Origin: Candidatus Levyibacteriota bacterium
Lineage (GTDB): Bacteria; Patescibacteriota; Microgenomatia; Levybacterales; UBA12049
Reading direction: 5' to 3'
Assembly: GCA_027459745.1 (NCBI GenBank)
Contig: DAIDHL010000005.1
Location: forward strand, 646-64,645
DNA: 64,000 bases
Each line of letters opens with the position of its first letter. Position 1 is the stretch's first letter. Below are positions 19,866 to 61,600 of this stretch, piece after piece. The notes beneath the pieces are model-generated. The model searched no databases. It had not been told where the DNA came from and was given only the letters and a program-made list of their open reading frames with translations. The translations under genes were made by a program, and so were the position numbers.

Positions 19866-19893
19866 CAATAAAAAACAGATTTAATATCTGTTT
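19866..19893 (-). terminator. Rho-independent terminator of the RRM gene (hairpin overlapping the stop codon, followed by a U-run)
   Basis: Minus strand reads 'AAACAGAT-ATTAA-ATCTGTTT' followed by 'TTTTATTG'. The stem is 8 bp and the stop codon TAA sits in the loop. Confidence 0.55.
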
Positions 19894-20216
19894 CGATTAT
19901 CGTTATATCTTGGTCTGCGGTCTCCTCCACGATTGTCTCGTGAACCAAAATCTCTTCTTGGTCTGTCTTCCATAGGTTTAGCTTCGTTTACCTTGATTGT
20001 TCTTCCGTCCAATTCTTTATCATTCAATTCCGCAACTGCTTTTTGGGCTTCTTCTTCAGTCGACATTTCGACAAAACCAAAACCACGTGAACGACCAGAT
20101 TCACGATCTGTTATGACTTTAGCTGAAACTACGTTTCCGGCTTGAGAGAAGAATTGCTGCAAACTTTCGTCAGTTGTGTTCCATGACAAACTGCCGACAA
20201 ATAATTTTTTACTCAT
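19881..20216 (-). CDS. RRM-domain RNA-binding protein with R/D/N-rich (RGG-like) tail
   Basis: RNP2 'KLFVGSLSW' and RNP1 'RGFGFVEM'. Start placed at internal M ('MSKKLFVG') because a perfect SD 'AAAGGAGG' lies 6 nt upstream. The longer ORF-track start at 20276 is unlikely. Confidence 0.85.
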   Translation of the reverse strand: MSKKLFVGSLSWNTTDESLQQFFSQAGNVVSAKVITDRESGRSRGFGFVEMSTEEEAQKAVAELNDKELDGRTIKVNEAKPMEDRPRRDFGSRDNRGGDRRPRYNDNRNRY

Positions 20217-20407
20217 ACTGTCCTCCTTTCTTCCATTATTCGTAGAGACATAGCTGTTTACTGAGGTAACTAACAAATATTAACTATCGAGCTACTCAAA
20301 AGAGAACAGTATTCTTTACTACACAGATTATAGCATATTGACGCAATATATGCCTTCAACTAATATTTTTGGCCTCAAAACCAGGCTGTGCTATAATACT
20401 CCACATT

Positions 20408-21541
20408 ATGCCTAAGATCGAAATGGGGCGAATACGCTTAAGTAAATCAGAAAAAAGTAGCATAGTACAGGCAAAAGACAGATTTATAAACCATTTAGAC
20501 AAACTTACACAACCTTCCCGTAGGCTGTTATTGAGTAATATTTTTATCAAAGGCCTACCTGGTAAATTAGAATTTACCAACACAAACTCTGAATCAGAGC
20601 TTAAGCGATATATAGACGAAGGATATGCGGTTATTGGTTTATTTACTCATCCTGGACAAAATGAGACTCTTGGCTTGCCATCTCTATGGACAAAAAGATT
20701 TAAACAGTCGCGAAAAAAACCAATTCAGTTTGCAGTAGCAGAACACATGCTACATATCCCCGGACTTGAAGGAGCTGCCAGGTTCGGAGGCGTACAGTTA
20801 GATGGTATGACTATTGAAGACACATTAGACCATATAGCTAAAAAACGCGCATTACAAACCATTCGCAATAATACCCCTTACGTTCCAATCTCCCAAGATG
20901 AGATCAATTCTATTGCAAGCAGTTTTATCTCAGTTGGTAAGTCTTTCGCCAAAATAATTAGAGAAGGCGGCACGGCATTTGAAAACCCCCAGCAAGGAAG
21001 AAGAGCATTCTTGGACGAAGAAAAAGATCATTTATATAATAAGTCTCCTGATGAGGTATTAAGGATAGTCAGAGAAGAACAAGAAAGTAAAGTGCACCAA
21101 AGAAAAGGTTTTAAACGTAAGATCAGAGAAACTATCTTTAAGGCGGCTAACAGAAGACTTCGACCATCAGCGCCCAAACAACCCTTAACCCCTTTTTCTG
21201 AAAAAATACCCGCCAAAGTCGGAACTTTCAACGGCGAGCCTGTTAAGAAATTCTTACGCTTAACCAGCGGGTGGGTGGAAGAAAACGGGAAACGAGTCAG
21301 GGTTCAACATAAAGCTGTAGTAGTTTGTATTACTGTCAAAGCTGATGTTGATTACCGTAAATTAAAAAACCTCAATCGATATCCATACACCTACCATGTA
21401 AGTGAACCTATGGAAGTACAAGATTTTCTAGCTAATGCAGCCAAGGAAGGATTAACTCCTGATGAATTTGCTTTTAGAATTTTTAATAAAAATTCAGATG
21501 AAAGATATAAGGCACGACATTTTAATCCTTATAACAATTAG
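20408..21541 (+). CDS. Hypothetical basic protein
   Basis: About 377 aa with no recognisable domain. Start set at 'MPKIEMG' because an extended -10 'TGcTATAAT' (20389-20397) lies 10 nt upstream. The ORF-track start at 20369 would precede the promoter. The 3' end overlaps the Lon stop convergently. Confidence 0.5.
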
Positions 21542-23984: not shown

Positions 23985-24350
23985 TTATTCGATATTGTTT
24001 TTAACAATGTTTATCAACGCTATCATATCAAAAGGTTTCTTTAAATAACCTGAAACCTTATATTTAAGAACAAGTTTTTCTAAATTTGCATCGGCAGAAG
24101 ATATAATTACAGGCACTTTAACTGTTTTAGAATTTTTACGCAATTGATCTATTAAACTTTCTGTCCTAAGCTGTTTATAATGTATGTCCATTAAAATAAG
24201 ACCGGGATTATGAGCAATTACCTGAGCAATAAAATCACTACTATCATCAAACCTTTGAACCACATAATGCTCAGACTCCAGTACAATACACATTACGTCA
24301 AAAATTGAATCATCGTCCTCAAAAATGAAAATCTTTTTACCCTTGAACAT
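23985..24350 (-). CDS. Orphan single-domain response regulator (receiver)
   Basis: 'KKIFIFEDDDSIFD', 'LILMDIHY' and 'KVPVIISSADANLEKLVLKYKVSGYLKKPFD'. Start taken at 'MFKGKK' because a TATAAT box lies about 12 nt upstream. The ORF-track start at 24404 is probably too long. Confidence 0.75.
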   Translation of the reverse strand: MFKGKKIFIFEDDDSIFDVMCIVLESEHYVVQRFDDSSDFIAQVIAHNPGLILMDIHYKQLRTESLIDQLRKNSKTVKVPVIISSADANLEKLVLKYKVSGYLKKPFDMIALINIVKNNIE

Positions 24351-24416
24351 TTTCAACCGTATTATAGCACTCCAGTAAAGTAAACCTGAAGTTAGACTGT
24401 ACATACTAAAAATTTG

Positions 24417-24426
24417 TTGCTATAAT
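24417..24426 (+). promoter_or_regulatory. Extended -10 promoter element 'TTGCTATAAT' 12 nt upstream of the OmpR-regulator ATG
   Basis: Sequence 'aaatttgTTGCTATAATgcacacgcgaagATG'. Same decamer at 42704-42713 before the paralogous regulator. 'TGcTATAAT' also at 20389-20397. Confidence 0.5.
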
Positions 24427-24438
24427 GCACACGCGAAG

Positions 24439-25110
24439 ATGGTACAGACAATTTTAGTCGTCGAAGACGACAAAGGAGTACAAAAATATTTAAGAGAGCT
24501 GCTACTGGATAACGGCTACGCTACACAGATTTCTGCAGACGGAATCGATGCACTTGAGAAGTTGAAAAAAATTGAGCCTGATGCAGTAGTATTGGACTTA
24601 GGCTTACCCAAAATGAGCGGTGAAGCTGTGTGTATGGAAATCCGCAAAAAGTATCCTGATCTCCCAATTATTATTCTCACAGCAAAAGACAGTATTAATA
24701 ACGTAGTTGAAGGCTTAAACTTAGGAGCTGATGATTACATGACCAAACCTTTTGTGGGTGACGAATTACTGGCACGTCTGAAGGCCAGGCTTAGACACTC
24801 TGTTTCTTCTGACGAAATTTTGCAGGTAGCTGATTTAACTCTTAATACCAAAACCATGGAAGTCAAAAGAGGAGTAAAACAAATACAACTTACTCCCCAG
24901 GAATATAAGCTGCTTGAATATTTGATGTCGAATAAAACCCGCGTTCTGACTCGTGAAATGATTTTAAATCGTATCTGGCTGTACGCTTCGGAAGTAGAAA
25001 CACGAGTAGTTGATGTATATATGGGATATCTTAGAAAAAAGATTGATTCAGGTCACGAAAAGAAACTACTTAAATCCGTCCGTGGTTTTGGTTATATGAT
25101 GAAAGACTAA
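24439..25110 (+). CDS. OmpR-family response regulator (receiver plus winged-helix DNA-binding)
   Basis: 223 aa. 'ILVVEDDKGV', 'VVLDLGLPKMSG', 'LTAKDSINNVVEGLNLGADDYMTKPF', and a C-terminal wHTH 'LTPQEYKLLEYLMSN...RVLTREMILNRIW...VDVYMGYLRKKI'. Preceded by 'TTGCTATAAT' ending 12 nt before the ATG. Confidence 0.9.
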   Translation: MVQTILVVEDDKGVQKYLRELLLDNGYATQISADGIDALEKLKKIEPDAVVLDLGLPKMSGEAVCMEIRKKYPDLPIIILTAKDSINNVVEGLNLGADDYMTKPFVGDELLARLKARLRHSVSSDEILQVADLTLNTKTMEVKRGVKQIQLTPQEYKLLEYLMSNKTRVLTREMILNRIWLYASEVETRVVDVYMGYLRKKIDSGHEKKLLKSVRGFGYMMKD

Positions 25111-26330
25111 GGCTTGTATTGGGGTAAGAACTTGGTTATATCAAGATTTGTAACCAGTTTTTCATCCAGAGGACTAAATACACAAAATACATTTTCAGCG
25201 GGTAAACCCAGCCTTTCGACTAAATATCCCTGCATTCCTTTGGCTCTCATTTTGTAAGTTCTACTATAAACGTTGAAAATATCTCCCGAAGATGACGGTG
25301 TGCGTCTCTTATTTTTTGGTTCACCCCAATCTCCTACTGGAGGGAGAATTACAGAGTTAAGTGCATCTTCTATCCACAAATCAGAATTGCCAACTCCCGG
25401 TAAAATACGTTGTTTATTTAGTTTTCGTTGCCAATATCTCTTAACTAATCCATCATATTCTTTATGTATTTCATCGTACTGTTCTTGTCTAGCAAATGAA
25501 CTTATAGCTTGTTGAGCAAGCAGAGCACGATAGAGAGTAGTTGCACTTTTTATTTTTTTAGCCTTAGAGAAGTTTTCAAACGACACACCAAATCTTGCTT
25601 TTGCAATTTTCTCAATTAACTGTATATCATCAAAAGATGGAACAGGAATTCCGCTAACTGTAGTTTTAAATTTCTTTCTTAGATCACTTTCCAGCGCAAG
25701 ATAATCTTCTAGGGTTCCCGCGCCGACTGTAAAATCTCGCATGGAAATACCTCTTTCTACCACATCCATCGTCACCATGGGATGTATAACAGCCATATGT
25801 CTACCAAACTTTCTTGCAAAGTGCTTTAGTGCTTTTTGACCTCTATCTATCCCTCCTGCTCCATGACTTCTAATTGCAGCTACGTCAGCTATAACTTTGT
25901 CGGAAATTGAAAGTGCATAATCCAAACGGTCTATGTAATCATTATTTACACTATCATATTCTAAACTCCCCCATTTAGTGGTTCCATCAGTATTTCTTCT
26001 TGAACCGAGTCTTTTTTCACCAGCTAACAACGCTAATTCGTATGGTACATGCAATGCAGGCATGACAGAGCCAATTCCCTGAGCCGTACTAGTTTTACCA
26101 CTCAAAGGAGGTCCAATCACAAAAACAATTCTTGTGTTGCTATCATCTAAACAGCTTAATATTTCATCTTCAGCTTTCTCTCCTTTTATATTCCAAAAAT
26201 TCCTTAACAATGTACCCTCGGTTTTTGATTCTACTTCTTCATGGGGTAACATGGGACGTTCTGAATACGTAGAATATGGTGAACTCAGTTTCGGACGATA
26301 TTGCCCGTTATTCATTTCAGGTAAACTCAT
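25107..26330 (-). CDS. P-loop NTPase / small-molecule-kinase-like protein (zeta-toxin/AAA_33-like Walker A) of unknown function
   Basis: 407 aa. Walker A 'VIGPPLSGKTSTAQ'. N-terminal region carries 'RPMLPHEE'. 4-bp ATGA overlap with the upstream histidine kinase implies co-transcription. Confidence 0.5.
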   Translation of the reverse strand: MSLPEMNNGQYRPKLSSPYSTYSERPMLPHEEVESKTEGTLLRNFWNIKGEKAEDEILSCLDDSNTRIVFVIGPPLSGKTSTAQGIGSVMPALHVPYELALLAGEKRLGSRRNTDGTTKWGSLEYDSVNNDYIDRLDYALSISDKVIADVAAIRSHGAGGIDRGQKALKHFARKFGRHMAVIHPMVTMDVVERGISMRDFTVGAGTLEDYLALESDLRKKFKTTVSGIPVPSFDDIQLIEKIAKARFGVSFENFSKAKKIKSATTLYRALLAQQAISSFARQEQYDEIHKEYDGLVKRYWQRKLNKQRILPGVGNSDLWIEDALNSVILPPVGDWGEPKNKRRTPSSSGDIFNVYSRTYKMRAKGMQGYLVERLGLPAENVFCVFSPLDEKLVTNLDITKFLPQYKP

Positions 26331-27484
26331 ACAAGTCTGGGCAGGTAAATACTCGCTTCAATATCGTTTTGAGAGGATTTTTTAAGTGATATCTTACCTT
26401 TGTGATGCTTGACTATATCTTTAGCTAAATACAGTCCTAACCCCATACCTGTATTCAGACTATCTCCACCTTTGTAGTATTTTTTAAAAAGATGCACCAA
26501 ATCGTCTGAAGGTATATTGCCTTTATTAACTACTGTTATTACAATTTGATTCTTTTTTTGTAATAGTACTATTGATAGAGGTGTATCTTCCTGAGAAAAT
26601 TTTGCAGCATTATCCACCAGATGGGAGATTAGCTGATCGATTTTTTCCGGATCACCTTTGATAAAGATTGATCTTTCATCAGTATTGTTAACAAAAGAAT
26701 ACTTTCTCTGACTGTGAATAGTCATATAGCGTAAAATCACTCTATTAATAAGGGGAATAACATCAAATGTATTCTTTACATATTGCTGTTTTTTGGAATT
26801 TATCCTAGTAATATCTAGTAACTCGTTTACAATATAGATTAATCTATGTGTTTGAGAATATAATTCATTTATCCAATCCTGCTCTCGGGATTTTCGGTTT
26901 ACAAAGCGTTTATGCAAGAGTTGAATATAGCCATGAATAGAAGTAAGAGGGGTACGTAATTCATGAGCCGCTAGAGAAATAAACTCATCCCGGGTAGAAA
27001 GTGCATTTGCCATATCTTGATAAGCTTGTGCTTTGGTTATGGCCAAACTAGCTAACGACCCTATAAAATTTAGCGTACTGATAATCTTTGAATTTAGTTT
27101 TTTCTTTTTGGTAAGATTAATAGACAACACTCCTATTTTTGTCTTTTCAAAAATTATGGGAATGTAAACAATTCCTACGATATCCAGAGTTAGTAGCTCT
27201 TTATGAAATTGGGAAACATGATTAATCGGAAGCAAGAAAACGCTTTCTTTTTTATATGCTTCATAAACAAAACCTTTACGTCTAGATTTAACTTGAAATT
27301 TAGGTGGTAAGGTACTATACACTCTCTCAAAATATGTCCCATTTTTTATGTGGATTGACCCGTAAGATGTTTGAAAAATACCAGCAGTTACACTGACAAT
27401 AACCTTATAGGTTTCTTCCAATGTTTTGCAATCCAATAATTTGAGCATCAGCTCATTCAATTTCTCCACATCAATACTGCTCAT
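26327..27484 (-). CDS. Cytoplasmic sensor histidine kinase (GAF-like N-terminal domain, HisKA, HATPase_c)
   Basis: 385 aa. H-box 'LAAHELRTPLTSIHGYIQLL', N-box 'LVDNAAKFS', G-boxes 'GMGLGLYLAKDIVKHHKGKISL'. No TM segments. Confidence 0.85.
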   Translation of the reverse strand: MSSIDVEKLNELMLKLLDCKTLEETYKVIVSVTAGIFQTSYGSIHIKNGTYFERVYSTLPPKFQVKSRRKGFVYEAYKKESVFLLPINHVSQFHKELLTLDIVGIVYIPIIFEKTKIGVLSINLTKKKKLNSKIISTLNFIGSLASLAITKAQAYQDMANALSTRDEFISLAAHELRTPLTSIHGYIQLLHKRFVNRKSREQDWINELYSQTHRLIYIVNELLDITRINSKKQQYVKNTFDVIPLINRVILRYMTIHSQRKYSFVNNTDERSIFIKGDPEKIDQLISHLVDNAAKFSQEDTPLSIVLLQKKNQIVITVVNKGNIPSDDLVHLFKKYYKGGDSLNTGMGLGLYLAKDIVKHHKGKISLKKSSQNDIEASIYLPRLV

Positions 27485-27541: not shown

Positions 27542-27721
27542 TTATTTCTTTTTATTTTTTTTCTGTCTGGACAGACCTCCTTTGCGCCCAGCCATCTTTG
27601 CTTCTTCACTACTCCACTTGTGAGCAGTGCCTTTAGCATGTGCAGCTTTGCCGCCTTTACTGGCGATACTTCTTTGTTTGTTGCTGTCCATTGAAGCAAA
27701 TCCGCGATTTTTTATTGCCAT
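27542..27721 (-). CDS. KGG-repeat general stress protein (YciG/con-10-like), 59 aa. Not in the ORF track because it is under 60 aa.
   Basis: Hand translation: MAIKNRGFASMDSNKQRSIASKGGKAAHAKGTAHKWSSEEAKMAGRKGGLSRQKKNKKK. Two KGG/RKGG repeats. Perfect SD 'GAAGGAGG' 5 nt upstream of the ATG. Confidence 0.65.
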   Translation of the reverse strand: MAIKNRGFASMDSNKQRSIASKGGKAAHAKGTAHKWSSEEAKMAGRKGGLSRQKKNKKK

Positions 27722-27887
27722 AAACCTCCTTCTAAAAAAATTTCATATCATTCATAATCATCTTCGTTACAAAAAAAGTAATAAATAATAAAGTCATCTC
27801 AGCTTCCATAATTAATACATCAATAATAATACTCATATATAAAAGGTCAAGCAATTCTGTGTAAGAATTATGTGTGAAATGTAGAGC

Positions 27888-29575: not shown

Positions 29576-29926
29576 TTGTATACTAGACAGATGGCAGAAG
29601 AAAAGAAATTGATTATCGAAGATTTAAAGGTAGGGACCGGCCCTGAAGTAAAATCTGGAGACCACGTAGTCATGCATTATGTCGGCACTTTAGAAGATGG
29701 AACAAAATTTGATTCTTCTTATGATCGTGATCAACCCTTTGAAACACCAATCGGAGTTGGATATGTAATCAAAGGCTGGGATATGGGTGTTCAAGGTATG
29801 AAAGTAGGAGGAAAAAGAAAATTAACTATTCCTTATCAATTGGGTTACGGAAAATATGGAATTGATCCTGACATCCCTGGATTTGCTACGTTAATATTCG
29901 AAGTAGAGTTATTAAGAATCAAATAA
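29576..29926 (+). CDS. FKBP-type peptidyl-prolyl cis-trans isomerase
   Basis: 'GDHVVMHYVGTLEDGTKFDSSYDRDQPFETPIGVGYVIKGWDMGVQGMKVGGKRKLTIPYQLGYG...ATLIFEVELL' is the canonical FKBP domain. True start may be the second ATG (29591, 'MAEEKK'). Confidence 0.85.
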   Translation: MYTRQMAEEKKLIIEDLKVGTGPEVKSGDHVVMHYVGTLEDGTKFDSSYDRDQPFETPIGVGYVIKGWDMGVQGMKVGGKRKLTIPYQLGYGKYGIDPDIPGFATLIFEVELLRIK

Positions 29927-30205: not shown

Positions 30206-30276
30206 TGCTGGATCATCTAACGGTAGGATAGTGGACTCTGAATCCATTCATCTTGGTCCGAATCCAAGTCCAGCAG
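30206..30276 (+). tRNA. tRNA-Gln (anticodon CUG)
   Basis: Hand fold. Acceptor TGCTGGA/TCCAGCA with the U1:A72 pair typical of bacterial tRNA-Gln. D-stem ATCT/GGAT. Anticodon stem GTGGA/TCCAT with loop C-T-CTG-A-A. T-arm CTTGG-TCCGAAT-CCAAG. Discriminator G. CCA not encoded. Confidence 0.8.
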
Positions 30277-30373
30277 CATTTAACAACCGAGGTTAGAAGC
30301 TAGTCGACCGAGCAGGTTGACAATCATTATGATATTGAGAAGTGATCAAAGATAATTAATTTTGATTCTAGGT

Positions 30374-53172: not shown

Positions 53173-56100
53173 CTACGGTGTTCCGGTCAGCGGAGCGAAC
53201 ATCATCGCGGCATTGTTGCTATACAACATTTTTACTTGGGTCTGCGTTAGTGCGTAATTATATAGTCTTACATCATCAATTTGACCTTTAAAATAATTCC
53301 CATCTTGTCTCGCTCCGATACGCAAGCCGGCAGCATAATTGGCAAGCGTTTTGGTCATAGTTGCTGTACCAATAGATACGCCATTAACATACATAACTGC
53401 TGCTGTACCAGCTTGAGTTATTACAACATGTGACCAAGTATTTAGAGGCAAACTATAATTTACTGACATGAGTGAGGCGCCGGTGTTACTTACTACCCAG
53501 ACGATTTGTTGCGTGCCACTGTTGTTGTACATTTCCAACACATAACCAGTTGTATTACCAGCATCATCGCGTTTATCGATGAGTCCATATACATTTCCAC
53601 TTGTTGGGTAGGAGCTAGGTTTTACCCAAAATGAGAGCGAAATATTGGAAGGCGTAAGCGCTGTATTGTCGGGTATGTTGGCATAATCATCGGTACCATC
53701 AAAGTTGAGGCTGGAATTGAATTTGCCATTCACTCCATTGTACCAAGCAGATGTAGATAATCCATCATTGCACGTCCCGGGAGATGTTTGTGAACCACTC
53801 GCACCAATAGTCAATGTTCCGTTGTATCCATTACCTGAGCTATCCCCAAGCAGATTTCCCTGACAGTCATCAAATTTCCACCAAGCCAACGGCGCTCCAC
53901 GATTATAATCCCAAAGGATTTGGGCAGCGCTTCGAGCATAACCATAAATTTTAAAACCTGAAATATAACCCTGTAAATAACCTCCACCTGTTTCTGCATC
54001 CGGCGCTCCTAAGAGAATGCCTTCTGTAACACTGGGTAATACTCCACTCAGTGAACCAGTTCCATCAGCATTCCCATCAACATATGTTCTAACCGTTGTG
54101 CCATCCCATGCACCAACTATAAAATGCCAATGATTATCGTTTATAGTACGAGATGTTACTGAACTTGCAGCTGATCCGCCGGAATTAAATGGAGTAAAAC
54201 GCAAAGTTCCATTCTGAGCTAGCAAAAATTGCCATACTCTAGTAGATGTTGTTGACATGTCTCTATTAACGATTTGATTTCCATAGCTGGTACCTGGCAC
54301 TTGAGATGTTTTTATCCAACCTTCGATAGTAACATAACTCATAGTGGGTAAACTTGATATGCCTACATAATTATTTGAACCATTAAGATAGGATAATTCT
54401 TGCTCAAGTCCATTAGGTCCTTTCGTAAAAAACCATTGATTTCCCAGAGTTCCATTCCAGGTACCATTATTTCCATTACCACTTGTATCATTAACTGTAA
54501 TCCCTTGTCCTTCTTGAAAATTCCACTCTCCCACTGGCGCAGCACACGAAGATGTATCACCTGGGACACAATATAGTTGATTTTGCGCTTGCGGCTGGTA
54601 GGTAGAAGAAGTACCCAAGACGCCGGCGGTAACACTCGAGCCTTGGTTGTAATAATCAGACTTAATTTGCCCTGCTGTGAGAGAATAGTTATACACTCTG
54701 ACTTCATCAATCGATCCATCCCAGATAAAATTACCGCTATTGGTGAAATTTCCAATATACGTTTCCGTAATTGGATTACTTAAGAATGTTCCATTCCAAG
54801 AAGATGTTGCACTCAGCGCACCATTGACATACAGAGACAATGTGCTGGTAGAGCTATTTGCAACCGCCGTGAGGTAATACCATTTCCCAATCGTCGGAGT
54901 AAAGTTAGCTTCTACCTCTGTCCAGATATTACCACTTTGGTCTATACCTGTGCGGAATTTATTACTAGTATCTCTTTCAATATTTAAGATTGATCCTATG
55001 GAATTATTCTCTGCATAGATCGCATTTTCTGTCCCGTCGTTATCATTAGACTTGACCCAGGCGCTAATCGTAAAGTTACTGGTATTCGCAACGATAGAAC
55101 CATTATAAGGAACGGCATACTGACTACTGCCATTCAGACTGAGTGCTTTCCCATTCACCGCGTCATTGGTCCACACCGGAGTACCGACAAGTGATGCATC
55201 ATAGGTACTTCCACCACTCCCACTATTGTGAGCAGTCGTGCCATAACCTTCATTAAATTTCCAATAACCTACTGGCCCAGCCCGGCTCCCAGCATCTACC
55301 AAATTGGTATCTCCTTCATTCATACCCTGCAAGACCTGAGTTTGAGAAATAGGATAATTATATATTTTTACTTCATCCATACTCCCGATGAAATGATTAT
55401 TCCCGTTCACATCAGTTCCCATATAAAGTGGCACACCTTGATTTAACAAAAAACTACCGGCTGAAGAGAGATCAGCTGTTGCTGGATAGTTTATTCCATT
55501 GACATACAGACTGATTGATGAACTTGCAGCGTTCCATACCATTGTAATGTATTGCCATTTTCCACCCGTCATAGTTGTATTTGTATGCACATTTAACTTT
55601 CCACCACTTGTATACACAGCCGCACACAAACTTTGCCCGGTTGCACCACTATATGCATTTCCACATTCTGAGATTACCCAACCATAACCTGTTGAGCTGT
55701 TTTGTGCAGCAAATATTTTTTGGGATACATTACCAGTTGGAGGTAATATCCAAGCAGACAGAGAAAAACTACCTGCGTTAAATGATGTACTGGTAGAGTT
55801 AGGAATGGAAATATTAGTAGTTCCGGGGAAAACACCTACTTCACTGTCAAACGCACCATACTTGCTAAAGGAATAATTTGAACTGGACCAAGTTCCATTA
55901 TTTCCATAACCTGATAAATCTTTTAATGTGTTTCCACTTCCTTCCTCAAAGTTATAGTATGCCACAGGCCCGGGCGTGTAACTATATAAATTCTGTACAT
56001 CTGTACTAGATAAAACACGGTTATAAACACGCATTTCATCAATCGATCCATTAAAAACTGCTCCTGCCCCATATGTGGCACCAATTTCGATGTTATAACT

Positions 56101-58644
56101 TGTAGTTATCGATGAAGTCAAACTATCATGTATAACAGTCATTGCTAATAATTTATTATCCAGGTATATTTTCATTCCAGCGGCTTTGCTAGATCCATCA
56201 TATGTCTCTACAATATGATGCCATTTACCATCATTCACAGTCACCGTACTTTGCTCGGAAATGAGGTTCGTGGTAGCATAATTGCTCGTCAAGCCCACTA
56301 TAATATAACCCGAGCTAGTTAATTGCAAATCCCATCCTTGATAAGCTGGCCCTCCTCCAGCTTTGGCAATAATAACAGGATTGGTAGAGACATTACTCGT
56401 CTTAATCCAATTACTTATAGAAAAAGTGTTCGTTCGGTCAAAGTTCATGCTACTGACATTGCCAGCATTTATATATTGAGTCGTCCCATTAAATGTTCCT
56501 GCATCTCCATATACACCACCTACAGTGGGTGTGCTACTATAACCCACGCCTGTCGCATTATTGCCATTCCCACTTGAATCAGTTACTTCACCAGAAACAT
56601 TATTATATGAGGCCTCATCCATTTTATAGTATGCTAACAAACCATTACTTAAAGTATAATTAGTTGACACGCCTAAAACTTCGCTTCCACTAATCGTAGT
56701 TCCACGACTGTTATAATCAGCCAGCACTTGTCCCAAAGATCTTGCATATCTATAATATTTCACCTCATCAATATATCCCTGAAAGTACTGTACATTGCCC
56801 ATTGCATACCCAATGTACGCACCCCCCAGAACTGTAGTTAAAGTGGTCGAAATACTTCCCGCATTCACGCCATTGATATACGCAGTTAAGACAGAACCTG
56901 TATATGTTAATTCAACGTGATTCCAATAATTTAAATTTAATTTTGAATTAGTAGTTAAAATATCATTACCATATCTGCCAATTTTAAGAGATCCATCCCC
57001 AGCCGCGCCATTTTCAGCAATAATCAGAGCATTATTGGTACCACTGGTTCCATAGGCAAAAGGAGTACCATAATTACCGGAAGCAAAAACAGTTGGTTTT
57101 ACCCATAGAGAAACAGAAAATGGATTGGCACCGGAAGCAAATTTACTGTCAGAAGCCGTAACGGCACTGCTGGCTCCATCAAAATACAAACATTTTCCGC
57201 TTATACATTGACTCTCTTGCTGCCAGGTAGGCTTTGTGGTACCGGATAACGTGGCATTATTTTTATTCGATGTGCTGTCATATGCTGTAACACCTTGCCC
57301 ATCATCAAATTTCCAATACGACACCGGTGCAGTACCCACCTCTTCTGATTGGAGAGAGTAGGTTATGTTATCGCCCGCTGTTTGAATAGCATAAGTATTT
57401 TTATAATCTAAGGCTACTTGTTGAGGGGTACGAACGTTATTATAAACGTGTACATCGTCTATCTGACCATTAAATAAACTGTCACCCGTCCATGAATTAT
57501 AACCGCTAATTTGCACAGGACCAGTGGTTAGTACACTACCACTAAGTGTATTAAACTGTGTAGTTGTAGATTGAGCTACGCCATCAATATATATAGAGAT
57601 TCCAGATGGAGAAGAGTTACCATTATATGTCGCAACTACATAATGCCAACTACCATTATTGACAGTTCCGGTTGTGTTGACTGATAGCTCATTTGAACTA
57701 TATGTATTAGTTAAATTAAGATTAACAGTACCCGATGTTGTTACTAAAAAAAAGATTCCCGGCCAAACGTTATTGGTTGTAAGAGCCTTGGAGTAAATAA
57801 TTTGCTGAGCGCTTGATGAGGTTTTAATCCAAGCTGTCAAACTAAAAGTATTGGTCTTGTCAAAAGCTAGAGTACTAACATTACCCATAGAAAGATATGC
57901 ATTGGTCCCATTGAATGTAGCATCTGAGCTATAAACTCCTGTTCCCCAGCTAGTTGTCCCACTCCAAGAACCATTATCAGCATATGCTGTAGAATCAATT
58001 GCTGATGTACCACTACCGTCATTCAATGTCCAATATCCCAGTAACCCGACTACATTATCAAAACCTTGAGTGGTTGAACCGGCTTTGGCGCTGGGGTTTC
58101 CGTAATACATATAAATATTATTAGTACCCGCTTGGAGACTATCGATCATTACCCAAACTTTGGTCGATGTTGTATTACAGCCCGAGTCAATATAATAACT
58201 TAAATTCTTCCCGCCTTCATTCGTAAAGCGTAGATCCTGACAATTGCTTTGCAATTTACCGGCAGAAATAAGTGTAGAAGTATTAAGTGCAAATGATTTC
58301 TGTATATTACTAACCGTAGCTCCTGTTGAATTGGTCACAATAATTCCTTCGCGATATGACCAATTGTTATCAAACCAAGCAGCTTGCACTGGTTTGATAT
58401 TTAACATTACCGTTATAAAACCTATCATCGAGAACAGAAAAAGAGAACCAATTATCAAGTATGAGTATTTGGTATGTGGTATTTTGTATTTGGTACGCAA
58501 CCCTTTCGTCATTGCAAGGAATCCCGATTTATCGGGAGACCGAAGCAATCTAGTCAATGATCTATTCTTTCTAGATTGCTTTACTAATGTTCGCAATGAC
58601 AGATTTATTTTAATTTTTAATAAATTCTTAAATCTTAATTTCAT
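53173..58644 (-). CDS. Giant membrane-anchored surface protein: DUF2341 domain followed by about 8 LamG (concanavalin-A-like lectin, Laminin_G_3) domains
   Basis: 1823 aa. N-terminal TM 'YLIIGSLFLFSMIGFITVML', then 'AAWFDNNWSYREGIIV' (the DUF2341 WxxxWxxR motif). Repeated LamG C-terminal motifs: 'FNGQIDDVHVYN', 'FNGSIDEMRVYN', 'FIGSMDEVKIYN', 'WDGSIDEVRVYN', 'LQGYISGFKIYGYARS', 'FKGQIDDVRLYN'. Alternative start 'MTKGLRTKYK' at 58512. Confidence 0.8.
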   Translation of the reverse strand: MKLRFKNLLKIKINLSLRTLVKQSRKNRSLTRLLRSPDKSGFLAMTKGLRTKYKIPHTKYSYLIIGSLFLFSMIGFITVMLNIKPVQAAWFDNNWSYREGIIVTNSTGATVSNIQKSFALNTSTLISAGKLQSNCQDLRFTNEGGKNLSYYIDSGCNTTSTKVWVMIDSLQAGTNNIYMYYGNPSAKAGSTTQGFDNVVGLLGYWTLNDGSGTSAIDSTAYADNGSWSGTTSWGTGVYSSDATFNGTNAYLSMGNVSTLAFDKTNTFSLTAWIKTSSSAQQIIYSKALTTNNVWPGIFFLVTTSGTVNLNLTNTYSSNELSVNTTGTVNNGSWHYVVATYNGNSSPSGISIYIDGVAQSTTTQFNTLSGSVLTTGPVQISGYNSWTGDSLFNGQIDDVHVYNNVRTPQQVALDYKNTYAIQTAGDNITYSLQSEEVGTAPVSYWKFDDGQGVTAYDSTSNKNNATLSGTTKPTWQQESQCISGKCLYFDGASSAVTASDSKFASGANPFSVSLWVKPTVFASGNYGTPFAYGTSGTNNALIIAENGAAGDGSLKIGRYGNDILTTNSKLNLNYWNHVELTYTGSVLTAYINGVNAGSISTTLTTVLGGAYIGYAMGNVQYFQGYIDEVKYYRYARSLGQVLADYNSRGTTISGSEVLGVSTNYTLSNGLLAYYKMDEASYNNVSGEVTDSSGNGNNATGVGYSSTPTVGGVYGDAGTFNGTTQYINAGNVSSMNFDRTNTFSISNWIKTSNVSTNPVIIAKAGGGPAYQGWDLQLTSSGYIIVGLTSNYATTNLISEQSTVTVNDGKWHHIVETYDGSSKAAGMKIYLDNKLLAMTVIHDSLTSSITTSYNIEIGATYGAGAVFNGSIDEMRVYNRVLSSTDVQNLYSYTPGPVAYYNFEEGSGNTLKDLSGYGNNGTWSSSNYSFSKYGAFDSEVGVFPGTTNISIPNSTSTSFNAGSFSLSAWILPPTGNVSQKIFAAQNSSTGYGWVISECGNAYSGATGQSLCAAVYTSGGKLNVHTNTTMTGGKWQYITMVWNAASSSISLYVNGINYPATADLSSAGSFLLNQGVPLYMGTDVNGNNHFIGSMDEVKIYNYPISQTQVLQGMNEGDTNLVDAGSRAGPVGYWKFNEGYGTTAHNSGSGGSTYDASLVGTPVWTNDAVNGKALSLNGSSQYAVPYNGSIVANTSNFTISAWVKSNDNDGTENAIYAENNSIGSILNIERDTSNKFRTGIDQSGNIWTEVEANFTPTIGKWYYLTAVANSSTSTLSLYVNGALSATSSWNGTFLSNPITETYIGNFTNSGNFIWDGSIDEVRVYNYSLTAGQIKSDYYNQGSSVTAGVLGTSSTYQPQAQNQLYCVPGDTSSCAAPVGEWNFQEGQGITVNDTSGNGNNGTWNGTLGNQWFFTKGPNGLEQELSYLNGSNNYVGISSLPTMSYVTIEGWIKTSQVPGTSYGNQIVNRDMSTTSTRVWQFLLAQNGTLRFTPFNSGGSAASSVTSRTINDNHWHFIVGAWDGTTVRTYVDGNADGTGSLSGVLPSVTEGILLGAPDAETGGGYLQGYISGFKIYGYARSAAQILWDYNRGAPLAWWKFDDCQGNLLGDSSGNGYNGTLTIGASGSQTSPGTCNDGLSTSAWYNGVNGKFNSSLNFDGTDDYANIPDNTALTPSNISLSFWVKPSSYPTSGNVYGLIDKRDDAGNTTGYVLEMYNNSGTQQIVWVVSNTGASLMSVNYSLPLNTWSHVVITQAGTAAVMYVNGVSIGTATMTKTLANYAAGLRIGARQDGNYFKGQIDDVRLYNYALTQTQVKMLYSNNAAMMFAPLTGTP

Positions 58645-58685: not shown

Positions 58686-61600
58686 CTAGTTAATGATCCA
58701 CCAGTTAAAGACAACCGGCGTATTCTTTGGCGTGTCCATATCAACGGTAAATGATGTTTTGGCTGACTTCTTAGTTACATATAACGCTCCTGATCCCTTG
58801 GTTTGTGAAGTCACAAAAATAAGCGAAGTTGATGAAACAATATTGGTAGGAATCGTTACACTAGTCAGACCTGCAGAAATTGTCGCCACTCCCACACTTG
58901 GATTCAAAGCATCAGGTGTAATATTTACCTTGCTGGCAGTTAATGTTCCCTGCAAGCTTACATCTCCCGTCGTACTAATTATTACACTGCTACCTTCCAA
59001 TTGAATGTCAGCTAAAGCTTCTGACTGTAATTGCAAAGGCTGACCAAGACTATCAATCTTGCCATTTAATCCATCGATTGTAATCAAGCCGTCAGTAATT
59101 ATTCCAGTCACTCCTACATCATTAAGAGTAGTTCTCCCACCCACCATCAGATCACCAGAAATTGTGGCTGTCTTGATATCCAGTTGGTCCGAGCTAGCAA
59201 AATTAGCTGAACCGGTGGCAAATAATTGATTTGGTAATGCGCTCATGGTAGCATTTTCCAAAGCTGATAATCGAGCAGACAGTGAGGCAATCAAGGCTGC
59301 GTGGTCATCAAGTGTGGCATGGATGGCAGTATTATCTGTTTGCAAACCAGCGACTTGTTGCTCTAAGGTTGGCGTACCCGTGGTACCAGAATTAGGCGTG
59401 GTGGTCGAAACATTTCCACTACTGGTTATATATACGGTTGGATCATACCAAGACACATTTGAATAGACGAGAATTGTCCCTACATCATTGGGGTTAGAAT
59501 CGCTATAAATAGCTAATGCTCGACCGATAATTACTCCTGCAGCAGTTGCTTTGACTGCCACTCCGGGAGTAGATGAGGATGTCAAAGGATCACCAACATT
59601 AATTGTTCCATTTGCACTACTCACATTCACGGGAACTCTTCCAACCAAAGCGACTGGATATAAATTTGGATGAGTAGAATCAGTCTTGGCTTCTGAGTTA
59701 ACAGTTACACCAGGACTACTGGAAATTATTCCCAGTAACCCAGTTTGATTTTGAGAAGTGGCCTTTACAATAGCATTGGAATTACCGTCATTTGCCATAA
59801 CTACCACATCGCCAGGAATAAGTGTTTGAGAAGAAATATAATTTTCCGCTACGTCTGCTCCAGTAATTGTCGTCGAAGTAGCATAAATAGTTCCTGCTGT
59901 ACTTCCGGAACACGCGGTAGACATCGTTGCCTTCACACAAAGAGACGCGACGATACGTGTATTACCGCTATTATCAATTCTAAAGAGAGGCGTCCCAGAT
60001 GAACTGGCAGTAAATATATCTGCTGATTCTGTTTGATTGAGCGTTAAGAGAGCCTTGCCAAATACTTGACTGTTTGTCATATAGGCTTGACCAAACAAGT
60101 TTGGCGCGATTGGCGGATTTTGCGCCCCCAAGACAAATTGTCCGGAAACAGTGGCCGCCCCTGTAGTCATAAATGATTCAGCATCCGCTACCACCATACC
60201 CTTGTTGTATGGGTCTAGAATCAAATTACTCGAATTGAACGGTTCACCCGGACGAATATAAATATTGGAAGAAGACTTAATAAATGAATTCATCGGATTG
60301 GTCAAATTAATATCATATGCCACAGATAAATCACCCGGTGTAGTCACTTGTAATGGTTCACTGGCAATGACCTGATTTTGTGTCACAGCAAACACACTGG
60401 TGCCGGCATTTTGTACATTGAAGATATTAGTTAGAGTTCCATTAGAACCCACATTCAAATCCAATAAATCACCCGTGGCAGTAGTAGCAACCGTGGGGTT
60501 CCATGCGAGACTTGACAAGCCACCCGTAAAGGCTGAGTTACCGGTATAGCTAAGATTTAACAAACTGCCTGAAGTCAAAGCATTTGAATTGGAAACCAAT
60601 GAAAGTTCATTGCCGGTAGTTAATAAATTGGCACTAAGAGTAGCCACGTTGCCGGTGGTTTCGGAACTGGTTTGAATTAAATCACCATTATATACGTTGA
60701 ATGCGAATTTGGCAGAAGAGGTTGCGCTACCGCCAAATAACACATCTTGCGTTAAATTACCTTCGGTTATCAAAGCACCAGTCGAATTAAATGGACTACT
60801 GCCTCCTCCACCACCACCCGGACAACTGGCACTACCTGTGACAATACCATTTACAGTGGTGACACAAGCCGCACTGGCAATCGTCGCCCCGGCATTACCA
60901 TTCATCGTCAAACTCCCTGTGGACAAAGCCAAAACTCCTGTCCCATTGCCAGCCTTCAAGGTCAGATTGCCAGTCGTCGCATTCCCGATATTCAAACCCT
61001 GGTTGGCAGTGGTAGCCAAAGTACCATCGGCAGTAATATATAATCCACCAGCTACTCCGGCCGAAATACTTGCAACTGGTGTTCCTGAATTCACATTTAT
61101 GAAAGCAAATTTAGCTGAGGGAGTAGAAACTCCTCCAAGCAGTAAATCTTGTGTGGTAATAGCCTCGCTTATTGTCCCTCCGATAGAGTTTAAAATATTT
61201 GCTCCACCGCCACTTGGACAAGCACCACTTCCGGTAACAATACCACCTACTGTCGTGACACAACCGGCACTTGCAATCGTCTGTCCTACACTACCACCAG
61301 CATAAAAAGTATTGGCAAAAATGTTCCTAAAAGCTATTGCACTCGTACCCAAATCTGTAACGTTATTACTGTTTGGACCTACATACCCACCAGCTATATT
61401 ATTTAAAGGTGCTAATAAAATATTTCCAGTTGTAGCAGAACCAAGCGTCAAGCTATGATCGTTGGTCGTAGCCAAAACTCCCAACCCAGTCAGATAGGCT
61501 GCATTATTTCCACTAGCCGCAGAGATACTGGCAGTAGGAGTTCCCGAATTAATATTTATAAATGCAAAATCTGCCGAAGCTGTTGAAGTTCCACCCAACA

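What the first reader, a model, noticed from the sequence alone, without database searches (positions are those of the whole stretch)
23985..27484. Histidine kinase co-transcribed with a P-loop kinase-like protein, flanked by an OmpR regulator and an orphan receiver
A cytoplasmic GAF-HisKA-HATPase kinase (26327..27484) overlaps by ATGA a 407-aa protein with a zeta-toxin/AAA_33-like Walker A ('GPPLSGKTSTAQ') and no other recognisable domain. The pair converges on an OmpR-type regulator (24439..25110), which is in turn divergent from a stand-alone receiver (23985..24350). A small-molecule kinase or NTPase coupled to a two-component sensor is unusual. It could be a nucleotide or second-messenger modifying output, or a toxin-like kinase under two-component control.
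Basis: partly seen in the sequence, partly recalled or inferred. Interest (0 to 1): 0.5.

Follow-up and report, generated by a model that had tools for sequence, protein, structure and literature searches.

The report
Fast-evolving P-loop partner of a histidine kinase
A two-component signalling operon in a tiny "candidate phyla" bacterium carries a third, uncharacterised ATP/GTP-binding-type protein welded onto the end of the sensor kinase gene, and a gene of this kind sits in the same slot in most relatives examined, changing so fast that standard searches see it as an orphan.

Summary
A soluble GAF-HisKA-HATPase kinase (26327..27484, -) overlaps by ATGA a 407-aa protein (25107..26330, -) with Walker A GPPLSGKT. 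That protein converges on an OmpR regulator, which is divergent from a 121-aa receiver. The 407-aa protein ("X") looks like an orphan: only itself in 5.8 billion and 1.84 billion protein sets, no Pfam, NCBIfam, PADLOC or PDB match, and AlphaFold failed. Neighbourhoods of 14 HK homologues (33-75% identity, Patescibacteria) change the picture. Ten have a Pfam-less 351-422-aa gene in the same slot, fused or abutting the HK stop, and most are followed by the convergent OmpR gene. All nine available sequences carry a Walker-A-type motif at residues 48-102, and the seven full-length ones also share an acidic strand, G-x-DRG and an Arg-rich motif. Profile-profile links (93% and 81% probability over about 145 columns) join a core group. 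X proteins are only 17-21% identical where HKs are 35-51% and RRs 65-83%. The P-loop subclass (kinase-like or AAA+-like) is unresolved, and a zeta-toxin or housekeeping-kinase reading is not supported. The best model is an accessory nucleotide-binding third component of the two-component system. A conserved direct-repeat box upstream suggests autoregulation. I rate it a new variant of a known kind, of moderate interest.

The parts
27861..27878 (-). Conserved direct-repeat box TTCACAC-ATAA-TTCTTAC (7-bp repeats, 11-bp period), 10 bp upstream of the -35. Putative binding site for the OmpR-family regulator.
   Evidence: Aligned block conserved across window, L001, L005 and L008. The pattern YTCWCAC-N4-TYCTTAC occurs once in the window and once at the same place in each of L001-L008, and nowhere in the 85 other loci. 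Binding by the RR is inferred, not shown.
27823..27850 (-). Promoter-like site (TTGACC-16-TATTAT) for the KGG-HK-X transcription unit.
   Evidence: Consensus scan, 10 of 12 matches. The -35 lies in the conserved block. No terminator-like site on the minus strand between here and the end of X.
27542..27721 (-). 59-aa KGG-repeat stress-induced protein gene with a strong AGGAGG ribosome-binding site, first gene of the unit.
   Evidence: Sequence read. Orthologous genes carry PF10685 KGG in L001-L008.
26327..27484 (-). Soluble GAF-HisKA-HATPase_c histidine kinase. H-box His174 (26948..26971), N box and G2 box are intact. The G1 box reads VVNKGNIP (26510..26533), with Asn320 in place of the canonical Asp.
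   Evidence: Pfam and NCBIfam, 767 homologues mostly from Patescibacteria, motif alignment, no TM segment.
25107..26330 (-). X: 407-aa P-loop protein, start overlapping the HK stop (ATGA) and stop overlapping the OmpR stop. Motifs: Walker A GPPLSGKT 26091..26114; acidic Walker-B-like strand KVIADV 25881..25898; GGIDRG 25839..25856; Arg-rich VVERGISMRD 25734..25763; C-terminal LGLPAENVFCVFSP 25170..25211.
   Evidence: No curated family and no homologue other than one orthologue.
24439..25110 (+). OmpR-family response regulator (receiver plus winged helix), convergent on X. 97% identical to the L001 orthologue.
24398..24426 (+). Promoter-like site (TGTACA-17-TATAAT with extended TG) for the OmpR gene, in the 88-bp divergent spacer.
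   Evidence: The -10 and flanks are conserved in L001.
23985..24350 (-). Stand-alone 121-aa receiver domain protein with an intact phospho-acceptor site (D55).
   Evidence: Present at the same place in L001, L005 and L006, and near the RR in the P0111 locus.

Best explanation
X is the third component of a three-component signalling module found in many Microgenomates-type Patescibacteria. It is a cytoplasmic P-loop nucleotide-binding protein made in fixed proportion to the soluble GAF histidine kinase, by termination-reinitiation at the ATGA junction.

Proposed mechanism:
1. X binds the kinase, and possibly the regulator.
2. Its nucleotide state (ATP or GTP bound, or hydrolysed) tunes the kinase/phosphatase balance of the HK towards the OmpR-type regulator and the single-domain receiver.
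3. The phosphorylated regulator then acts on a direct-repeat box in front of the KGG-HK-X operon, giving autoregulation.

X is an accessory rather than a core part, because some lineages have lost it while keeping the HK and RR.

Shown:
- the gene order and the coupling geometry, and their conservation;
- the conserved P-loop, acidic strand, G-x-DRG and Arg motifs;
- the extreme divergence rate;
- the absence of X from curated families;
- the conserved cis-box.

Inferred:
- physical interaction with the HK;
- nucleotide dependence;
- the direction of regulation;
- RR binding to the box.
For: (1) Slot conservation. A Pfam-less 351-422-aa co-directional gene lies directly after the HK in 10 of 14 independent HK-homologue neighbourhoods (33-75% HK identity) and is usually followed by a convergent OmpR gene.

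(2) Junction. There is an ATGA overlap in 6 of 9 sequenced junctions, plus the P0111 locus by coordinates. The others have an 11-nt overlap or a 2-4-nt gap, and no Shine-Dalgarno is visible in the window.

(3) Motifs. 7 of 9 slot proteins have a strict Walker A, against 45 of 2314 background ORFs. The other two are near-misses (GLTGLAKS, GESATGKG). All are at residues 48-102.

(4) Homology of the N-terminal domain.
- hhalign win+L001 vs L010: 92.8%, E 4e-7, 144 columns.
- hhalign L091+L093 vs L010: 81%, 149 columns.
- L010 ranks top among all Walker-A ORFs for both profiles.
- Leave-one-out ranks are #1, #2 and #2 for L010, L091 and L092, and #6 for the window protein via the DRG/Arg region.
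- Walker A G and K and one Arg are invariant in the 7-member alignment.

(5) X is dispensable. L003, L005/L006 and L012 have the HK converging directly on the RR.

(6) Precedent. RapZ binds the HK QseE and the RR QseF and stimulates QseE autophosphorylation (PMC7073468). That RapZ's N-terminal domain is P-loop kinase-like is my own knowledge.

(7) Cis-box. It is conserved and specific to this position.
Against: - There is no interaction, binding or activity data.
- AlphaFold gave no usable model (pLDDT 34 twice), so the fold and P-loop subclass are unknown.
- Sequence-level homology is demonstrable only for a core group (window/L001, L010, L091, L093, L092) and only for the N-terminal domain. 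L009 and the two truncated proteins rest on position plus motifs.
- C-terminal halves show no significant similarity.
- Operon co-membership would fit an output enzyme equally well.
- The sample is 14 neighbourhoods out of more than 700 homologous HKs.
Confidence: 0.45

Rival explanations
1. X is an output enzyme, not a regulator. It would be a P-loop kinase (AAA_33/KTI12/NMP-kinase-like) that phosphorylates a small molecule, nucleic acid or protein, co-expressed with the HK simply because the operon is the regulon of the OmpR regulator.
For: - Weak but concordant Pfam hits of the L001 orthologue to AAA_33 (E 0.0047, residues 68-201 to profile positions 1-121 of 143), KTI12 and AAA_18.
- L093 and L091 give weak hits to the 'nucleoside/nucleotide kinase family'.
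- The strand followed by V-x-[ER]-[RK]-G-x-x-x-R resembles the LID of P-loop kinases (the resemblance is my own knowledge).
- The cis-box suggests RR control of the operon.
Against: - All hits are below gathering thresholds, and other members hit GTPase, ABC or AAA+ models instead.
- The family profile prefers no P-loop class.
- 17-21% identity between lineages, with a degenerate Walker A in L009, is unusual for an enzyme with a fixed substrate.
- Conserved start-stop fusion to the HK specifically suggests stoichiometric partnership.
Confidence: 0.25
2. X is a conflict or toxin-type NTPase (zeta-like toxin, or an anti-phage or host-interaction sensor) whose rapid divergence reflects an arms race, kept under control of the two-component system.
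For: - X has by far the fastest divergence in the block: 53% where the HK is 75%, the RR 97% and Lon 96%, and 17-21% between lineages.
- Weak PADLOC hits to mad8 for the window, L001 and L010 proteins (E 0.0025-0.007) and to DolB for L010.
- X has been lost in some lineages.
Against: - No antitoxin-sized ORF is present. The upstream gene is the HK itself.
- The only Zeta_toxin hit is E 0.15 on one member.
- No match in phages, plasmids or viral contigs.
- Inheritance is syntenic and vertical, with no mobile-element signatures at the slot.
- dN is well below a saturated dS between the window and L001, which argues against pervasive positive selection.
Confidence: 0.1
3. The slot proteins are unrelated lineage-specific insertions into a permissive spot between convergent genes. 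The shared P-loop is coincidental or convergent, and there is no functional tie to the HK.
For: - Pairwise BLAST and phmmer find no significant similarity between lineages.
- Jackhmmer drifts into generic P-loop ATPases.
- C-terminal halves are not alignable.
- L002 has something different after the HK, and L009 and L092 carry extra unrelated genes in the gap.
Against: - 7 of 9 have a strict Walker A against a 1.9% background, all at the same relative position.
- The proteins share size, orientation and the ATGA junction.
- hhalign links span about 145 columns and rank first among all P-loop ORFs.
- There are additional shared motifs beyond Walker A.
Confidence: 0.1
4. X compensates for a crippled HK ATP site. 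The HK's G1-box Asp is Asn, so X would supply nucleotide binding or phosphoryl donation.
For: The G1 box reads VVNKGNIP, with N320 in place of Asp, in the window HK and its subclade.
Against: - X is equally present next to HKs with a canonical DxGxG (L009, L010, L091-L093).
- X is absent next to G1-Asn HKs in L003 and L005.
- So the two traits are not correlated.
Confidence: 0.03

Closest known systems
RapZ acting on the QseE/QseF two-component system (E. coli)
   Same: A cytoplasmic protein with an N-terminal P-loop domain acts as an accessory that binds both the HK and the RR and stimulates HK autophosphorylation (PMC7073468). This is the closest functional model for what X may do.
   Different: - rapZ is not in the qseEF operon and is not translationally coupled to the HK.
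- RapZ has a defined PFK-like RNA/GlcN6P-binding C-terminal domain and is well conserved.
- No X member hits any RapZ model in the Pfam or NCBIfam scans.
P-loop kinases of the AAA_33 / KTI12-PSTK / zeta-toxin type
   Same: - Walker A of the GxPxxGK[ST] type.
- An acidic strand about 70 residues later.
- An Arg-rich segment after the next strand.
- The orthologue's weak Pfam hits cover the whole kinase core.
- KTI12/PSTK also have a kinase domain followed by a C-terminal extension (my own knowledge).
   Different: - All scores are below family thresholds, and the window copy scores nothing.
- No DxTN-type or catalytic-Asp motif could be assigned.
- There is no epsilon-type antitoxin.
- Other family members hit GTPase, ABC or AAA+ models instead.
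AAA+ modules (for example Lon, whose gene lies 1.2 kb away)
   Same: hhalign of the win+L001 profile to Lon's AAA+ module gives 53-69% probability over about 95 columns spanning Walker A to Walker B. The hydrophobic strand followed by Arg residues is reminiscent of sensor-1 and the Arg finger.
   Different: - No member has the hhhhDE Walker B.
- The Pfam AAA score is below threshold.
- The alignment is shorter and scores lower than that to the slot protein L010.
- There is no lid-domain similarity.
Other HK plus NTPase partnerships (KaiC-SasA; PstB/PhoU-PhoR; BceAB-BceS; Streptomyces conservons CvnA-D)
   Same: In each, a P-loop NTPase feeds information to a histidine kinase. In conservons the NTPase is in the same operon as an HK-like sensor (my own knowledge).
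   Different: - X is not a RecA-type, ABC-type or Ras-like protein by any scan.
- There are no roadblock/DUF742 partners and no transporter.
- The soluble GAF-HK and the start-stop fusion are particular to this system.

Membership tests
Canonical two-component system (HisKA histidine kinase plus OmpR-family regulator) | HisKA H-box with a phospho-accepting His, and the HATPase_c N and G2 boxes | tested here: met
   HisKA 55.5 bits, HATPase_c 61.2 bits. H174, DNAAKFS and GMGLGL are conserved in a 16-sequence alignment.
Canonical two-component system (HisKA histidine kinase plus OmpR-family regulator) | G1 box DxGxG, with the adenine-contacting Asp | tested here: not met
   The window HK reads VVNKGNIP (N320, second Gly missing). 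The same Asp-to-Asn change occurs in P0003-P0007 and P0010, while more distant homologues keep DxGxG. The functional consequence is unknown.
Canonical two-component system (HisKA histidine kinase plus OmpR-family regulator) | Receiver domain with acidic pocket, phospho-acceptor Asp, Thr/Ser and Lys; winged-helix output | tested here: met
   OmpR protein: Response_reg 98.5 bits, Trans_reg_C 88.6 bits, with D10/D11, D53, T81 and K103. Stand-alone receiver: 54.9 bits, with D55, S84 and K105.
Zeta toxin / AAA_33 / KTI12 P-loop kinases | Match to the family model at or above its gathering score | tested here: not met
   Window X has no hit. The L001 orthologue scores AAA_33 17.7 bits (cutoff 27), KTI12 16.2 (cutoff 22) and AAA_18 17.1 (cutoff 29.4). 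Zeta_toxin appears only at 11.9 bits, on L010.
Zeta toxin / AAA_33 / KTI12 P-loop kinases | Walker A GxxxxGK[ST] | tested here: met
   GPPLSGKT at residues 73-80, conserved in the orthologue and in 7 of 9 slot proteins.
Zeta toxin / AAA_33 / KTI12 P-loop kinases | Kinase-type fold and topology with a LID and a catalytic base | not testable with these tools
   AlphaFold2 single-sequence models had mean pLDDT 34.1 and 33.9. The orthologue could not be added to the alignment. The PDB profile search matched only the P-loop and first helix.
Zeta toxin / AAA_33 / KTI12 P-loop kinases | Adjacent small antitoxin gene (for zeta/epsilon modules) | tested here: not met
   The upstream gene is the 385-aa HK, overlapping by ATGA. 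Downstream is the convergent OmpR gene. No small co-directional ORF exists.
AAA+ ATPases | Walker B hhhhDE and a family model match | tested here: not met
   The acidic strand reads VIADV, ITLEL, VIKEN, ITFDI or FVREK, with no DE pair. The best Pfam AAA score is 14.3 bits against a cutoff of 21.2, on L010 only. hhalign to Lon gives 53-69% probability.
RapZ family | Sequence match to RapZ models (P-loop N-terminal domain plus PFK-like C-terminal domain) | tested here: not met
   No RapZ-type family appears in any Pfam or NCBIfam scan of 7 family members at E<=1-10.
RapZ-like function (accessory that binds the HK and RR) | Physical interaction with the HK or RR and an effect on phosphorylation | not testable with these tools
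   Only genomic coupling can be shown here.
Streptomyces conservon (CvnA-D) | HK-like sensor with roadblock/LC7, DUF742 and a Ras-like GTPase in one operon | tested here: not met
   No such genes occur in the window locus or in any related locus.
Proposed new family: HK-coupled P-loop protein of Patescibacteria | Gene immediately 3' of a soluble GAF-HK, co-directional, start overlapping or within 4 nt of the HK stop | tested here: met
   Window ATGA overlap. The same geometry occurs in 9 further neighbourhoods (and the coordinates).
Proposed new family: HK-coupled P-loop protein of Patescibacteria | Walker A at residues 48-102, then an acidic strand, G-x-DRG and V-x-[ER]-[RK]-G-x-x-x-R | tested here: met
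   All four motifs are present in window X. hhalign to L010 gives 92.8%.
Proposed new family: HK-coupled P-loop protein of Patescibacteria | Statistically demonstrable homology of all slot proteins over their full length | tested here: inconclusive
   Core group only, and N-terminal domain only. L009, L011 and L008 are not recovered. C-terminal halves are not significant.

The most novel reading that the evidence does not exclude
The slot proteins define a previously unrecognised, Patescibacteria-wide class of three-component signalling system. In it a hyper-variable P-loop NTPase, not the GAF domain, is the specificity-determining sensor subunit of a soluble histidine kinase. It would read a lineage-specific cue, for example a host-derived or phage-derived molecule in these epibiotic, reduced-genome bacteria, and its arms-race-like divergence would explain why it has escaped every family database.
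Probability: 0.2. Interest if true: 0.75.

Novelty: new variant of a known kind. Interest (0 to 1): 0.55.

Why it matters
Patescibacteria have tiny genomes and very few regulators, so a signalling module kept across several of their lineages is likely central to their lifestyle. If X is a nucleotide-dependent partner of the kinase, the simplest textbook two-component system is really a three-component one in this large radiation. It would add a new accessory family to the short list of proteins known to modulate histidine kinases from the cytoplasm.

There is also a methodological point. A protein that looks like a strict orphan to exhaustive sequence search was placed in a family only by walking the neighbourhoods of its conserved partner gene.

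Tried and rejected
- Homologue searches with X: the word-indexed search of 5.8 billion proteins, as a single sequence and as a 2-sequence profile, returned only the query. Exhaustive phmmer on 1.84 billion representatives also returned only the query.
- Contig scans with X: metagenome and viral contigs gave nothing. Genome contigs gave only the one Levyibacteriota orthologue.
- PDB sequence and profile searches gave nothing beyond P-loop matches.
- AlphaFold2 on full-length X and on residues 36-232 gave pLDDT 34 for both, which is unusable, so no fold search was attempted.
- Pfam, NCBIfam, PHROGs and PADLOC gave no hit above threshold for any of 7 family members.
- The look-up of encoding contigs for X itself: not on record.
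- Pairwise BLASTP and phmmer between lineages were not significant. Jackhmmer drifts into Lon, YifB and ABC.
- hhalign on the C-terminal halves was not significant.
- The metagenome scan with the HK alignment mostly returned generic HKs. Only L011 and L012 were useful, and L014 and L046 are unrelated high-GC organisms.
- I rejected the idea that the HK tails in X-less loci are remnants of X. The shared ...[TN]-P-stop ending is forced by the complementary codons of the conserved RR C-terminus.
- I rejected a link between the HK's G1-box Asn and the presence of X, because the two are uncorrelated.
- Three literature searches found no description of this operon. The eLife 2020 conflict-systems paper is not relevant.
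- Phage and plasmid tblastn gave no match.

Full report
OBSERVATION. The four ORFs are as described.

- The kinase (26327..27484, minus strand, 385 aa) has HisKA and HATPase_c above Pfam thresholds. GAF_2 scores 26.6 bits, just under its cutoff of 28.6, but GAF is clear in its homologues. It has no transmembrane segment.
- The kinase's TGA stop overlaps the ATG of a 407-aa ORF (25107..26330, minus strand), which I call X. X carries GPPLSGKT at residues 73-80.
- X's stop overlaps by 4 nt the stop of a convergent OmpR-type regulator (24439..25110).
- That regulator is divergent from a stand-alone receiver.
- Both receivers have intact phospho-acceptor sites.
- A 59-aa KGG stress-protein gene (27542..27721) sits directly upstream of the kinase. 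It lies behind a promoter-like site, and no terminator-like signal occurs on that strand through the end of X.

The window is low-GC (32-44%) and comes from a Patescibacteria genome. The nearest relative is a Candidatus Levyibacteriota MAG.

X LOOKS LIKE AN ORPHAN.

- It has no Pfam, NCBIfam, PADLOC, PHROGs or PDB match.
- The 5.8-billion-protein search returns only the query, both as a single sequence and as a profile.
- Exhaustive HMMER over 1.84 billion representatives also returns only the query.
- Metagenome, viral, phage and plasmid collections give nothing.
- AlphaFold2 without an alignment failed twice, with mean pLDDT 34, so no fold comparison was possible.

X is nevertheless a real gene. 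The Levyibacteriota MAG has a 407-aa orthologue in the same place. It is 53-56% identical with no gaps, and dN (0.35) is far below a saturated dS. X is the fastest-evolving gene of the block: the HK is 75% identical, the receiver 67%, DsbA 85%, Lon 96% and OmpR 97%.

THE NEIGHBOURHOOD WALK CHANGES THE PICTURE. The kinase belongs to a large family of soluble GAF kinases of Patescibacteria (767 hits at E<=1e-20). I examined 14 independent neighbourhoods of homologues at 33-75% identity.

- Ten have a Pfam-less, co-directional gene of 351-422 aa (two are cut by contig ends) starting at the HK stop.
- By coordinates, the junction is an ATGA overlap in seven, an 11-nt overlap in one, and a gap of 2-4 nt in two.
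- Where the contig continues, a convergent OmpR gene usually follows. In L009 and L092 an extra gene lies in between.
- Three neighbourhoods (L003, L005/L006, L012) lack X and have the HK converging directly on OmpR.
- One close relative (L002) has different sequence after the HK.

So the arrangement HK -> X -> <- OmpR is a widespread feature, with X lost in some lineages.

ARE THE SLOT PROTEINS ONE FAMILY? The evidence against is as follows.

- Pairwise comparisons are not significant.
- Global identities are 17-21%, where the cognate HKs are 35-51% identical and the RRs 65-83%.

The evidence for is as follows.

- All nine available sequences have a Walker-A-type motif 48-102 residues from the N-terminus, each preceded by a hydrophobic strand. 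The motifs are GPPLSGKT (twice), [32 protein letters not shown] and GEPVSGKS, plus the deviants GLTGLAKS and GESATGKG.
- Only 45 of 2314 background ORFs (1.9%) have a strict Walker A.
- The win+L001 profile aligns to L010 over 144 columns (92.8%, E 4e-7). L091+L093 aligns to L010 over 149 columns (81%). L010 ranks first for both profiles among all Walker-A ORFs, ahead of Lon's AAA+ module (53-69%, about 95 columns).
- A seven-member alignment of the N-terminal domain shows four further features: the invariant Walker A Gly and Lys; an acidic strand (VIADV, ITLEL, VIKEN, ITFDI, FVREK); a G-x-D-R-G motif; and a hydrophobic strand followed by V-x-[ER]-[RK]-G-x-x-x-R with an invariant Arg.

Leave-one-lineage-out HMM tests are mixed. 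L010 ranks #1, L091 #2 and L092 #2. The window protein ranks #6 of about 1200, through the DRG/Arg region. L093, L009 and the two truncated proteins are not recovered.

The C-terminal halves are not significantly alike. The best local match is the LGLPxxN-hhhh motif, at E 0.14.

My reading is that there is a single, hyper-divergent family, with good support for a core group and for the N-terminal domain. For the remaining members the evidence is position plus motifs.

WHAT KIND OF P-LOOP PROTEIN? This is unresolved.

- The L001 orthologue gives weak, concordant hits to AAA_33, KTI12 and AAA_18 across the whole kinase core (E 0.005-0.03, below thresholds).
- L093 and L091 touch a nucleotide-kinase model.
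- L010 hits RuvB, AAA and ABC models, and L091 hits GTPases.
- The family profile against PDB matches only the P-loop and first helix.
- Its recurrent background competitors are ABC, GspE and HflX/Obg proteins, so it prefers no class.
- There is no DE Walker B, no NKxD motif and no antitoxin gene.

MECHANISM. The conserved start-stop fusion to the HK, without a visible ribosome-binding site, points to translational coupling and fixed stoichiometry, which is the hallmark of a physical partner. X has been lost repeatedly while the HK and RR remain, which makes it an accessory.

I therefore favour a nucleotide-dependent accessory that modulates the kinase/phosphatase balance of the soluble GAF kinase. 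The closest known example is RapZ, which binds QseE and QseF and stimulates QseE autophosphorylation (PMC7073468).

The rivals are:
- an output kinase co-expressed with the sensor;
- a fast-evolving conflict or toxin-type NTPase;
- unrelated insertions into a permissive slot;
- compensation for a defective ATP site in the HK.

The last is contradicted by the distribution of the two traits.

REGULATION. Upstream of the KGG gene there is a 7-bp direct repeat with 11-bp period (TTCACAC-ATAA-TTCTTAC, 27861..27878). It lies 10 bp upstream of a TTGACC -35 hexamer and is conserved across lineages whose surrounding non-coding DNA has diverged.

The pattern YTCWCAC-N4-TYCTTAC occurs once in the window. 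It also occurs once, at the same position, in each of L001-L008, and in none of the other 85 loci. This geometry is typical of OmpR/PhoB-family sites (my own knowledge). It suggests that the 97%-conserved regulator autoregulates the KGG-HK-X operon. That is an inference and has not been shown.

COMPARISON AND NOVELTY. The HK and RR are ordinary members of their families, except for the G1-box Asn. X fails membership of Zeta_toxin, AAA_33, KTI12, AAA+, RapZ and the conservon GTPases. It belongs to no curated family as of Pfam 2025, NCBIfam 2026 and PADLOC 2023, and three literature searches found no description of it.

Accessory proteins that tune histidine kinases are a known kind, including some P-loop proteins. 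What is new here is this particular family, its obligate start-stop fusion to a soluble GAF kinase, its spread in Patescibacteria and its extreme divergence. I rate it 'new variant of a known kind', with interest 0.55.

CAVEATS. The sample is only 14 neighbourhoods. There is no usable structure model and no experimental data. Homology of the most divergent slot proteins rests on motifs and position.

Noticed in passing
window 26510..26533 (HK residues 318-325): The HK's G1 box reads VVNKGNIP. The adenine-contacting Asp of DxGxG is Asn (N320) and the second Gly is missing. The same change is present in the whole subclade (P0003-P0007, P0010), while more distant homologues keep DxGxG. The kinase may have altered nucleotide use, or may act mainly as a phosphatase.
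   Followed up: partly
The order DsbA - KGG - HK is conserved in the window, L001, L002, L003/L004, L005/L006 and L008.
   Followed up: partly
L003:7677-7988 (-): In one X-less lineage the gene convergent on the HK is only 103 aa (Trans_reg_C alone, no receiver), and no stand-alone receiver or Lon gene follows. This looks like a decaying copy of the module.
   Followed up: no
L002:2664-2866: The HK orthologue at 72% identity is followed neither by X nor by OmpR. The 203 bp to the contig end are open on the opposite strand in one frame and resemble neither gene.
   Followed up: partly
L009:7237-8100 and L092:7200-7916: Extra genes sit between X and the OmpR gene in two lineages: a 287-aa Pfam-less protein in L009, and a 238-aa protein with a weak His_Phos_1 (histidine phosphatase superfamily) hit in L092. 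A phosphatase-fold protein in this slot may be relevant to the signalling module.
   Followed up: no
window 20369..21541 (+): A 390-aa ORF with no Pfam or PHROGs match converges on the Lon gene with a 4-nt overlap (21538..21541). Pfam-less genes of 377 and 275 aa occupy the same position in L001 and in L005/L006. This may be another fast-evolving positional gene.
   Followed up: no
L001:562-5193: The Levyibacteriota relative carries Phage_rep_O, IstB/DnaA-like and two serine recombinase genes next to the FKBP gene. In the window, the corresponding side of FKBP (29576..29926) has tRNA-Gln (30206..30277) and a 528-aa protein instead. This is probably an integrated element in the relative.
   Followed up: no
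window 53173..58644 and 58686..63923 (-): Two adjacent giant ORFs of 1823 and 1745 aa in the highest-GC part of the window. They were not examined.
   Followed up: no
window 19881..20216 (-): A small RRM-type RNA-binding protein with a Gly/Arg-rich tail, 98% identical to the L001 orthologue. It is the most conserved gene compared.
   Followed up: no
L009:6158-7231: The slot protein of this widely sampled lineage (its HK, P0049, was read on 23 contigs) has a degenerate Walker A, GLTGLAKS, with the Gly before the Lys replaced by Ala. This hints that nucleotide hydrolysis is not required in all lineages.
   Followed up: partly
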